Positions 58,816-59,050 of a stretch of DNA of 64,000 nucleotides are shown piece after piece. The translations under genes and the position numbers were made by a program. How positions within the stretch are numbered: the stretch's first letter is position 1; every line of letters starts with the position of its first letter. Under the pieces are notes generated by a model. It did not search any database. It saw only the letters and a list, made by a program, of their open reading frames with translations, and had not been told where the DNA came from. The stretch comes from Escherichia coli (GTDB lineage Bacteria; Pseudomonadota; Gammaproteobacteria; Enterobacterales; Enterobacteriaceae): the NCBI RefSeq assembly GCF_003334305.1, contig NZ_QOWS01000022.1. One strand, given 5' to 3'.

Positions 58816-59050
58816 ATTGCCGGATGCGGCGTAAACGCCTTATCCAGCCTACGTTCGGCAACGGTTGTAGGCATGATAAGACGCGCAAGCGTCGCATCAG
58901 GCATCGTGCACCGATTGCCGGATGCGGCGTAAATGCCTTATCCGGCCTACGTTCGGCAACGGCTGTAGGCATGATAAGACGCGCAAGCGTCGCATCAGGC
59001 ATCGTGCACCGATTGCCGGATGCGGCGTGAACGCCTTATCCGGCCTACAG
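58816..59050. repeat. tandem ~98-bp BIME/REP array in aceA-aceK intergenic region
   Basis: Unit beginning ATTGCCGGATGCGGCGTAAACGCCTTATCC recurs at 58816, 58914 and 59012 (2.4 copies, few mismatches). Confidence 0.85.

What the first reader, a model, noticed from the sequence alone, without database searches (positions are those of the whole stretch)
58816..59050. 98-bp tandemly repeated BIME unit between aceA and aceK
The aceA-aceK spacer holds about 2.4 nearly identical tandem copies of a ~98 bp REP-containing unit. REP structures here are known to affect relative aceA versus aceK expression through mRNA stability; copy number varies between strains and could tune aceK dosage.
Basis: partly seen in the sequence, partly recalled or inferred. 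Interest (0 to 1): 0.35.

Follow-up and report, generated by a model that had tools for sequence, protein, structure and literature searches.

The report
REP (BIME-2) array between aceA and aceK
The repeat is real, but it is an ordinary and well-known kind of E. coli intergenic palindrome cluster (a BIME-2 made of REP elements) sitting inside the glyoxylate-shunt operon; its copy number differs between strains and this 2.5-copy version is the commonest one.

Summary
Window 58816..59064 holds 2.5 tandem copies of a 98-bp unit (units 1 and 2 are 95/98 identical). It fills most of the 280-bp spacer between aceA (stop 59071) and aceK (ATG 58790), both on the minus strand.

The unit is a Y REP plus an inverted Z2 REP with short linkers and no IHF site, which is a textbook BIME-2. 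Two units score above Rfam's gathering cut-off for naRNA4, the REP325 family.

It is not an assembly artefact. About half of sampled complete E. coli genomes carry the same 280-bp allele. K-12 and O157:H7 have 1.5 copies, O145 has 0.5, and at least 10 genomes have 3.5. Other lineages have chimeric or REP-free spacers, and E. albertii has 5.6 copies of a 91-bp unit.

Accessible literature attributes low aceK expression to poor translation and to a terminator inside aceK (AceK-int). That terminator-like hairpin is present at 58431..58452. A REP effect at this locus is inferred from malE-malF and REP325, not shown. Predicted aceK start-site accessibility does not change with copy number.

Verdict: already known, low interest.

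The parts
59071..60375 (-). aceA (isocitrate lyase) CDS; stop codon TAA at 59073..59071
   Evidence: NCBIfam NF011645, 803 bits. RefSeq annotation of identical or near-identical records gives a 1305-nt aceA. The mechanical ORF extends to 60390.
59049..59070 (-). 22-nt aceA-proximal flank (GCAACAACAACCGUUGCUGACU), with a small 5-bp hairpin GCAAC/GUUGC in the MFE fold
   Evidence: Sequence; fold.
59014..59048 (+). Y-type REP no. 3 (GCCGGATGCGGCGTGAACGCCTTATCCGGCCTAC); it is the first REP met by the aceBAK transcript, in inverted orientation
   Evidence: Fuzzy match to the Y consensus; CCTAC foot at 59044.
58965..59005 (-). Z2-type REP no. 2
   Evidence: Match to the Z2 consensus with 1 substitution; GTAGG foot at 58965.
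58916..58950 (+). Y-type REP no. 2 (loop variant GTAAATGCC)
58867..58907 (-). Z2-type REP no. 1
58818..58852 (+). Y-type REP no. 1, aceK-proximal (variant CCAGCCTAC); predicted to pair with the aceK leader and first codons
58816..59064 (.). The tandem array: unit 1 at 58816-58913, unit 2 at 58914-59011, partial unit 3 at 59012-59064. Each unit is Y REP + 14-nt linker (GTTCGGCAACGGYT) + inverted Z2 REP + short linker (ATCGTGCACCGATT).
   Evidence: TRF; the repeat finder; linkers.
58968..59045 (-). Rfam naRNA4 (RF02564) match: one inverted-Y plus Z2 pair on the transcript strand
   Evidence: 85.6 bits against a gathering score of 59.5.
58870..58947 (-). Second Rfam naRNA4 match
   Evidence: 81.8 bits against a gathering score of 59.5.
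58791..58817 (-). 27-nt aceK leader (AUUCUCUGCUCCUGAUGAGGGCGCUAA) with the Shine-Dalgarno-like GAGGG
   Evidence: Sequence; predicted to be largely paired.
57054..58790 (-). aceK (isocitrate dehydrogenase kinase/phosphatase) CDS
   Evidence: NF002804, 944 bits.
58423..58507 (-). Position equivalent to the AceK-int sRNA and the premature 3' end inside aceK. The intrinsic-terminator-like hairpin CCGCTCG...CGAGCGG at 58452..58431 is followed by CTTTTTATCT. This is context, not part of the BIME.
   Evidence: Terminator scan; sequence; MG1655 coordinates 4,218,879-4,218,963 from PMC8175672, converted using my recollection that aceK starts at 4,218,596 in U00096.3.

Best explanation
This is a BIME-2, a cluster of REP palindromes in which Y-type and Z2-type units alternate in opposite orientation. 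It sits in the transcribed spacer between aceA and aceK of the E. coli aceBAK operon and carries five REPs, or 2.5 Y/Z2 units of 98 bp.

Shown here: its composition, its tandem structure, its membership of the naRNA4/REP325 sequence-structure family, and its polymorphism. Alleles differ by exact whole units, and independent 98-bp duplications and deletions recur in the population. That pattern is what recombination or slippage between units, or REP-transposase (RAYT/TnpA-REP) activity, would produce.

Inferred function: on the aceBAK mRNA the inverted-Y and Z2 REPs pair into very stable long hairpins. By analogy with malE-malF and REP325, these would protect the upstream aceBA segment from 3' exonucleases and partly attenuate transcription into aceK, in a way that is likely Rho-assisted since there is no U-tract. 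This would add to the known poor translation of aceK and to the terminator inside aceK. One hairpin probably provides most of the effect, so going from 1.5 to 2.5 copies is most likely nearly neutral.
For: Identity: the Y and Z2 consensus matches alternate in orientation. GTAGG/CCTAC feet occur at each REP, the linkers are 14 nt and about 14 nt, and there is no IHF consensus. TRF and the repeat finder confirm the tandem structure. Two naRNA4 hits lie above the gathering score. The definition of BIME-2, and the statement that tandem BIME number at a locus varies between strains, come from Ton-Hoang 2012 (PMC3333891).

Polymorphism by whole units: spacers of 85, 182, 280 and 378 bp were found. 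The 3.5-copy alleles carry different SNP patterns, so they arose independently. Rosetta2(DE3) equals the BL21-Gold allele plus an exact duplicate of unit 2. The single full unit in K-12 is a chimera of window units 1 and 2. IS1397, which the literature describes as REP-specific, sits in a Y REP loop of this spacer in strain IAI39.

Structure: the MFE is -146.9 kcal/mol with z = -5.5 for the window spacer and -97.7 kcal/mol with z = -4.2 for K-12. No intrinsic terminator was found in the spacer.

Functional analogy: REP325 belongs to the same family and lies between tandem genes. It lowers downstream yjdN about 8-10 fold, stabilises upstream yjdM, and is partly Rho-dependent. REP-containing tandem pairs genome-wide show raised upstream/downstream expression ratios (Harris 2026 preprint).

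Comparative: 76 of 78 Enterobacteriaceae species have an aceA-aceK spacer that folds with z < -2, built from at least three unrelated palindrome types. This argues that a stable hairpin at this position is either selected or strongly tolerated.
Against: No experiment at this locus was accessible. The documented causes of low aceK expression lie elsewhere: translation and the internal terminator AceK-int. About 12% of sampled E. coli genomes have a 48-bp spacer with no REP at all, so the BIME is dispensable, although that allele keeps a small GC-rich hairpin. According to the same preprint, REP effects are context-dependent and REP-terminated mRNAs do not show longer half-lives genome-wide. Universal structure in the spacer could also reflect a preferred landing site for palindromic mobile elements rather than selection.
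Confidence: 0.7

Rival explanations
1. The array is neutral, selfish repeat DNA. It expands and contracts by recombination or REP-transposase activity in a permissive intergenic site and has no meaningful effect on aceBAK expression.
For: The locus is extremely variable: six or more common architectures, including a REP-free one, occur within one species. Gains and losses of exact units recur. An IS1397 insertion is tolerated in IAI39 and a 222-bp duplication in UTAK-4. Ton-Hoang 2012 proposes TnpA-REP-driven amplification.
Against: 76 of 78 species keep a strongly structured spacer, even the 47-55-bp REP-free ones. The closest studied relative, REP325, has order-of-magnitude effects on its neighbours.
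Confidence: 0.3
2. This is the first reader's idea: copy number acts as a rheostat, with each extra 98-bp unit lowering aceK expression or raising aceA stability stepwise, so that lineages tune AceK dosage.
For: REP325 RNA appears as a ladder of species ending after successive hairpins, which suggests that each hairpin pair adds some termination or decay block. Each extra unit adds roughly -49 kcal/mol of predicted structure.
Against: Predicted accessibility of the aceK start site is the same for 0.5, 1.5, 2.5 and 3.5 copies: 0.20-0.23. Copy number tracks lineage, with the 280-bp allele in half of sampled genomes and K-12/O157 at 1.5 copies, and no known phenotype is attached. No expression data exist.
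Confidence: 0.12
3. The array acts on translation. The aceK-proximal REP pairs with the aceK leader and first codons and hides the start codon. On this view the last REP, not the copy number, contributes to the very poor translation of aceK.
For: In the ensemble fold the AUG is unpaired with probability only 0.00-0.07 in all alleles whose proximal REP is Y-type. The value is 0.33-0.65 in alleles with another proximal element. The duplex between the proximal REP and the start region is -35.6 kcal/mol, against -38.6 for a genuine Y:Z2 pair, and only 13 of 1000 shuffles reach it. The aceK start region ranks 4th least accessible of 37 neighbouring genes. Literature reports inefficient aceK translation.
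Against: This is a thermodynamic prediction only. The REP's own hairpin (-18.7 kcal/mol) forms first during transcription and may persist. Sequence similarity of the leader to Z2 is not significant, with 129 of 1000 shuffles matching it. No covariation is available because the sequences are identical. The rank among neighbours is low but not an outlier.
Confidence: 0.2
4. The array acts at the DNA level or in nucleoid organisation, either as a BIME-2 gyrase binding and cleavage site or as a source of HU-binding naRNA.
For: BIME-2 elements are reported gyrase targets (Espeli and Boccard 1997, cited). There are two above-threshold naRNA4 matches.
Against: The 2026 preprint finds that REP325 and naRNA4 do not measurably compact the nucleoid and that REP-REP contacts are not seen. 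Nothing in the sequence can test gyrase binding.
Confidence: 0.08
5. The extra repeat unit is an assembly expansion artefact.
For: Tandem repeats can be mis-assembled. The single Rosetta2(DE3) 3.5-copy record could be such a case.
Against: A sequence 100% identical over 901 nt is present in many independent complete genomes. 49 of 99 sampled chromosomes share the 280-bp spacer. A 249-bp array is shorter than a read pair and far shorter than a long read.
Confidence: 0.01

Closest known systems
BIME-2 family of E. coli REP clusters (Gilson/Bachellier classification; Ton-Hoang 2012, PMC3333891)
   Same: Y and Z2 REPs alternate in opposite orientation with short linkers. The Y/Z2 pair is repeated in tandem, the element is extragenic, and copy number varies between strains at the same locus.
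   Different: Nothing essential differs. This is one particular locus and allele: 2.5 units of 98 bp. Other Escherichia alleles have a 7-nt shorter linker, giving 91-92-bp units.
REP325 / naRNA4 (Rfam RF02564) between yjdM and yjdN
   Same: Same sequence-structure family (85.6 and 81.8 bits against a gathering score of 59.5), the same Y/Z2 alternation, and the same position between two tandem co-transcribed genes.
   Different: REP325 has 12 palindromic units and this array has 5. REP325's attenuator and stabiliser activity was measured; here it is only inferred.
malE-malF REP mRNA stabiliser
   Same: REP hairpins in an intra-operon spacer, with an abundant upstream product and a scarce downstream product. 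The element itself is present in this window at about 29800..29926, between the malE and malF homologues.
   Different: malE-malF has a single REP pair. Its stabilising effect is the classical experimental case, which I cite from my own knowledge (Newbury et al. 1987). The aceA-aceK array has not, to my knowledge, been shown to do the same.
K-12 aceA-aceK spacer (182 bp, three REPs)
   Same: Same flanks, same leader, and the same first and last REPs.
   Different: The window has one extra 98-bp unit. The single full K-12 unit is a chimera of window units 1 and 2.

Membership tests
REP / palindromic unit | An imperfect palindrome of about 35 nt with a conserved GTAG/CTAC tetranucleotide at its foot, located outside genes | tested here: met
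   There are five units, each with CCTAC or GTAGG at its foot. Each forms or shares hairpins. All lie between the aceA stop and the aceK start.
BIME-2 | Composed of Y and Z2 REP types (not Z1) | tested here: met
   Three Y matches (0-2 substitutions in the core) and two Z2 matches (1 substitution).
BIME-2 | REPs alternate in orientation and the Y/Z2 pair is repeated in tandem with short linkers | tested here: met
   The order is Y(+), Z2(-), Y(+), Z2(-), Y(+). The period is 98 with 2.5 copies. The linkers are 14 and about 14 nt.
BIME-2 | Copy number variable between strains at one locus | tested here: met
   0.5, 1.5, 2.5 and 3.5 copies occur in E. coli and 5.6 in E. albertii.
BIME-2 | Bound and cleaved by DNA gyrase | not testable with these tools
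   Literature property (cited); it needs biochemistry.
BIME-1 | A single Y/Z1 pair with a long L linker carrying an IHF site (WATCAANNNNTTR) | tested here: not met
   There is no IHF consensus on either strand of the spacer. The second REP type is Z2 and the element is tandem.
Rfam naRNA4 (RF02564) | Covariance-model score at or above the gathering threshold of 59.5 bits | tested here: met
   85.6 and 81.8 bits on the minus (transcript) strand.
Rfam naRNA4 (RF02564) | RNA associates with HU / nucleoid | not testable with these tools
   The nucleoid role is itself disputed by the 2026 preprint.
REP mRNA stabiliser / attenuator (malE-malF, REP325) | Co-transcribed between tandem genes of one operon | tested here: met
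   aceB, aceA and aceK are all on the minus strand. No promoter-like or terminator-like site was found in the spacer on the transcript strand.
REP mRNA stabiliser / attenuator (malE-malF, REP325) | Measured protection of upstream mRNA or reduction of downstream transcription | not testable with these tools
   No accessible experiment exists for this spacer.
Intrinsic (Rho-independent) terminator | GC-rich hairpin followed by a U-tract | tested here: not met
   There are zero terminator-like sites in 58600..59300. One lies inside aceK at 58452..58431.
REP-induced ribosome stalling (Liang, Rudd and Deutscher 2015; from memory) | REP begins within about 15 nt of the upstream stop codon | tested here: not met
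   There are 22 nt between the aceA stop codon and the GTAG foot of the first REP.

The most novel reading that the evidence does not exclude
The aceK-proximal REP may be more than a passenger. By pairing with the aceK leader and first codons it would act as the translational off-switch behind the roughly 300-fold AceA:AceK difference. Lineages that replaced it (the B2-type 214, 124 and 48-bp alleles) would then make more AceK and partition isocitrate differently. A structured spacer that occludes the aceK ribosome-binding site would be the conserved feature across Enterobacteriaceae, supplied by whichever palindrome family each genus carries.
Probability: 0.15. Interest if true: 0.45.

Novelty: already known. 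Interest (0 to 1): 0.12.

Why it matters
It matters little on its own. REP/BIME elements, their presence between aceA and aceK, and strain-to-strain copy-number variation of BIME-2 arrays have been described since the late 1980s and 1990s.

The useful by-products are descriptive. K-12's 1.5-copy spacer is a minority allele. The locus has at least six common architectures in E. coli. A strongly folded aceA-aceK spacer is near-universal in Enterobacteriaceae.

If REP architecture does affect AceK dosage, this natural allele series would be a ready-made test of how REPs tune expression within an operon that controls the TCA/glyoxylate branch point.

Tried and rejected
1. RNase III processing in the spacer. 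Gordon 2017 lists an 'aceK' site, but the supplement places it at MG1655 4219637 and labels it 'coding aceK'. By my recollection of the aceK start that is about 1 kb inside the gene, so it is not in the BIME.

2. Intrinsic terminator in the spacer. None was found.

3. Small ORFs across the array (58766..59002 minus, 78 aa; 58824..59030 plus, 68 aa). I rejected these as coding. They consist of REP sequence, the 98-bp period is not a multiple of 3, and copy number ranges from 0 to 3.5 between strains.

4. Primary papers on this locus and on BIME polymorphism (Chung 1993, PMC204903; Bachellier 1997, PMC1207841) are not held. Four full-text searches for a tested REP effect at aceA-aceK found nothing.

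5. The idea that the aceK leader is a degenerate sixth (Z2-like) REP. Local alignment to Z2 is not better than shuffles, with 129 of 1000 matching it, and the Rfam model does not extend into it.

6. Exact allele counts over all 5,426 genomes could not be obtained, because the search tool lists at most 60 rows. Frequencies come from two systematic 'spread' samples. The 3.5-copy count comes from a directed synthetic-query search and is a lower bound.

7. No 4.5-copy E. coli allele was seen among the top hits. That query cannot strictly exclude one.

Full report
**1. The observation**

The sequence at 58816..59064 is a clean tandem repeat. Tandem Repeats Finder gives a period of 98, 2.5 copies, 94% matches and no indels. 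The repeat finder shows two full units (58816-58913 and 58914-59011, 97% identical) and a 53-nt third partial unit. Units 1 and 2 differ at three positions.

The repeat lies in the 280-bp spacer 58791..59070, between two genes on the minus strand. NCBIfam identifies these beyond doubt as aceA (isocitrate lyase) and aceK (IDH kinase/phosphatase), with aceB immediately upstream of aceA. The window is E. coli: all 5,426 complete E. coli genomes match the region, many at 100% over 901 nt.

**2. What it is**

Read on the plus strand, each unit has four parts:
- a Y-type REP (GCCGGATGCGGCGTAAACGCCTTATCCGGCCTAC)
- a 14-nt linker
- an inverted Z2-type REP (reverse complement of GCCTGATGCGACGCTTGCGCGTCTTATCATGCCTAC)
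- a short linker

The array therefore reads Y, Z2, Y, Z2, Y, which is five REPs. Each REP has the GTAG/CTAC foot, and there is no IHF consensus.

This matches the definition of a BIME-2: Y and Z2 REPs, short linkers, tandem copies. Ton-Hoang et al. [quoted passage not shown]

Rfam independently places two Y/Z2 pairs on the transcript strand in family naRNA4 (RF02564). That family was built from the twelve-REP element REP325. The scores are 85.6 and 81.8 bits against a gathering score of 59.5.

**3. Polymorphism within E. coli**

I ran a REP-free query made of the two flanks joined together. All 5,426 genomes matched it, and the record span gives the spacer length directly. I pooled its 60 evenly spaced rows with the 39 chromosomal rows.

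| Spacer length | Rows (of 99) | Notes |
|---|---|---|
| 280 bp (2.5 copies, this allele) | 49 | |
| 182/183 bp (1.5 copies) | 16 | includes K-12, BW25113 and O157:H7 |
| 48 bp (no REP) | 12 | |
| 124 bp | 10 | |
| 214/215 bp | 6 | Nissle type, with chimeric REPs |
| 85 bp | 4 | a single Y REP, O145 |
| special cases | 2 | see below |

The sequences of these alleles were read directly.

A synthetic 3.5-copy query found at least ten genomes with a 378-bp spacer. I confirmed five of them at the aceA-aceK locus. Their internal SNP patterns differ, so the extra unit arose several times. Rosetta2(DE3) equals the BL21-Gold(DE3) allele plus an exact duplicate of unit 2. That is either a recent gain in a laboratory lineage or an error in that one assembly.

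The single full unit in K-12 is a chimera of window units 1 and 2, as expected for a one-period deletion or insertion.

The two special cases are informative:
- Strain IAI39 has IS1397 inserted in the loop of a Y REP of this spacer. The literature describes IS1397 as REP-specific.
- Strain UTAK-4 has a 222-bp tandem duplication whose junction lies at the foot of the first REP.

Assembly artefact is therefore excluded for the 2.5-copy allele.

**4. Beyond E. coli**

A scan of one genome per species with the AceK N-terminus returned 80 loci. I could delimit the aceA-aceK spacer in 78 of them.

- Twenty-nine species have a 47-62-bp spacer carrying a GC-rich hairpin of the CCCCTCTCCCC/GGGGAGAGGG type. 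These include Enterobacter, Raoultella, Klebsiella oxytoca and Lelliottia.
- Forty-four species have 63-130 bp. These spacers hold genus-typical REP pairs (Citrobacter, Salmonella, Kluyvera, Klebsiella grimontii) or Enterobacter-type palindromes.
- Five species have more than 130 bp.

Within Escherichia, E. albertii has 5.6 copies of a 91-bp Y/Z2 unit and E. whittamii has 2.8 copies of a 92-bp unit. The E. coli 48-bp allele resembles the short class.

Seventy-six of the 78 spacers fold with z < -2 against shuffles. So a stable hairpin between aceA and aceK is near-universal, but it is supplied by unrelated palindromes in different lineages. This favours some selected or at least strongly tolerated role for structure here. 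It also shows that the particular BIME and its copy number are not conserved.

**5. How it probably works**

*Shown:* the spacer RNA is predicted to be very stable. The MFE is -146.9 kcal/mol (z = -5.5) for the window spacer, compared with -97.7 kcal/mol for K-12. Each inverted-Y pairs with the following Z2 in a long composite hairpin. The spacer contains no U-tract terminator.

*Inferred, by analogy:* the same family member REP325 sits between tandem genes. It reduces downstream yjdN about 8-10 fold, stabilises upstream yjdM, is partly Rho-dependent, and yields a ladder of hairpin-terminated RNAs. Genome-wide, REP-separated tandem pairs have raised upstream/downstream expression ratios (Harris et al. 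2026 preprint). The classical malE-malF REP stabiliser is itself present in this window at about 29800..29926. Its stabilising role is cited from my own knowledge.

*Limits of the inference:* the documented reasons for the roughly 0.3:1:0.003 AceB:AceA:AceK ratio are different ones.
- The ratio is attributed to inefficient aceK translation and premature termination, and that termination was observed within aceK (citing Chung 1993).
- A conserved 3' end and the AceK-int sRNA map at +284..+368 of aceK.
- The window carries the matching terminator-like hairpin at 58452..58431 followed by CTTTTTATCT.

**6. Does copy number matter?**

I computed ensemble pairing probabilities for seven natural alleles. 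The aceK start region (-15..+5) is equally inaccessible for 0.5, 1.5, 2.5 and 3.5 copies: the mean unpaired probability is 0.20-0.23, and for the AUG it is 0.00-0.07. The reason is that in all four alleles the aceK-proximal Y REP pairs with the leader and first codons.

That duplex has -35.6 kcal/mol, close to a genuine Y:Z2 pair at -38.6, and only 13 of 1000 shuffles reach it. Alleles with a different proximal element are predicted to be more open, with AUG values of 0.33-0.65. Among 37 neighbouring genes the aceK start ranks fourth least accessible.

This is a thermodynamic prediction only. It suggests that any translational effect depends on the last REP, not on the number of units. Extra units could still add attenuation or exonuclease blocks, but nothing here shows that they do.

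**7. Comparison with what is known, and verdict**

The element meets every defining feature of a BIME-2 that I could test. It fails the tests for BIME-1 (no IHF site, no Z1), for an intrinsic terminator, and for the stop-codon-proximal REP stalling context (22 nt from the stop codon).

The class, the presence of REPs in this spacer, and copy-number polymorphism of BIME-2 arrays are all established knowledge. Novelty is 'already known' and interest is low. What the session adds is descriptive:
- The 2.5-copy allele is the commonest E. coli allele, and the K-12 allele is a minority.
- Unit gains and losses recur.
- A structured aceA-aceK spacer is conserved across the family, while its sequence is not.

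Noticed in passing
window 58423-58507 (minus strand); hairpin 58452..58431: There is an intrinsic-terminator-like hairpin (CCGCTCGCTTACTCCCGAGCGG followed by CTTTTTATCT) inside the aceK coding sequence. Its position matches the published AceK-int sRNA and the premature 3' end. This is a documented cause of low aceK expression that is separate from the BIME.
   Followed up: partly
window 29800-29926: A Y/Z2 REP pair (naRNA4, 59.7 bits, just above the gathering score) lies between the malE and malF homologues. This is the classical REP mRNA-stabiliser locus, and it happens to be in the same window.
   Followed up: partly
window 8191-8227, 21079-21115, 25664-25700, 48581-48622, 63825-63860: There are further single REPs. 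By mapping to strain E2863 they fall in ubiA-plsB (21079), lamB-malM (25664, where the two strains differ by about 60 bp right at the REP), yjbB-pepE (48581) and rrf-yjaB (63825). The one at 8191 was not mapped.
   Followed up: partly
L008 (E. coli IAI39) 1405-3023: IS1397 is inserted in the loop of a Y REP of the aceA-aceK spacer (GGCGTAAAT | IS | AAATGCC). It separates aceA from aceK by about 1.6 kb.
   Followed up: partly
L007 (E. coli UTAK-4) 692-1191: There is a 222-bp tandem duplication of window 58630..58851, covering the aceK 5' end, the leader and the first Y REP. Its junction is at the REP foot (CCAGCCTA|AAGATGG), and it creates a pseudo-aceK fragment upstream of the intact gene.
   Followed up: partly
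L010 (Rosetta2-DE3) compared with L014 (BL21-Gold(DE3)): Two derivatives of strain B differ by exactly one 98-bp unit (378 against 280 bp). This is either a recent gain in the laboratory or an assembly error in one record.
   Followed up: partly
L005 592-639 and loci L026-L094: The REP-free 48-bp E. coli allele and the 47-55-bp spacers of many Enterobacteriaceae carry a GC-rich hairpin. In many species its 3' arm (GAGGGGGAA) looks like the aceK Shine-Dalgarno sequence, which suggests conserved occlusion of the aceK ribosome-binding site.
   Followed up: partly
L017 663-1175 (E. albertii) and L018 920-1172 (E. whittamii): The same locus in sister species holds 5.6 copies of a 91-bp unit and 2.8 copies of a 92-bp Y/Z2 unit. 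The unit is 6-7 nt shorter than the 98-bp unit in the window.
   Followed up: partly
window 55512-57085 (plus strand): Two adjacent ORFs (406 aa and 118 aa) overlap the aceK 3' end. In strain E2863 a single 524-aa ShET2/EspL2-family type III effector gene is annotated at this position. In the window the gene appears to be split by a frameshift or stop.
   Followed up: no
window 41301-41497 (plus) and 39257-39406 (plus): There is a lysine riboswitch upstream of lysC (99.5 bits) and an STnc430 sRNA match (69.1 bits).
   Followed up: no
window about 47679-47775: Relative to strain E2863 the window lacks about 6.3 kb (L095 16226-22563), which in E2863 carries the sorbose PTS/sorE cluster.
   Followed up: no
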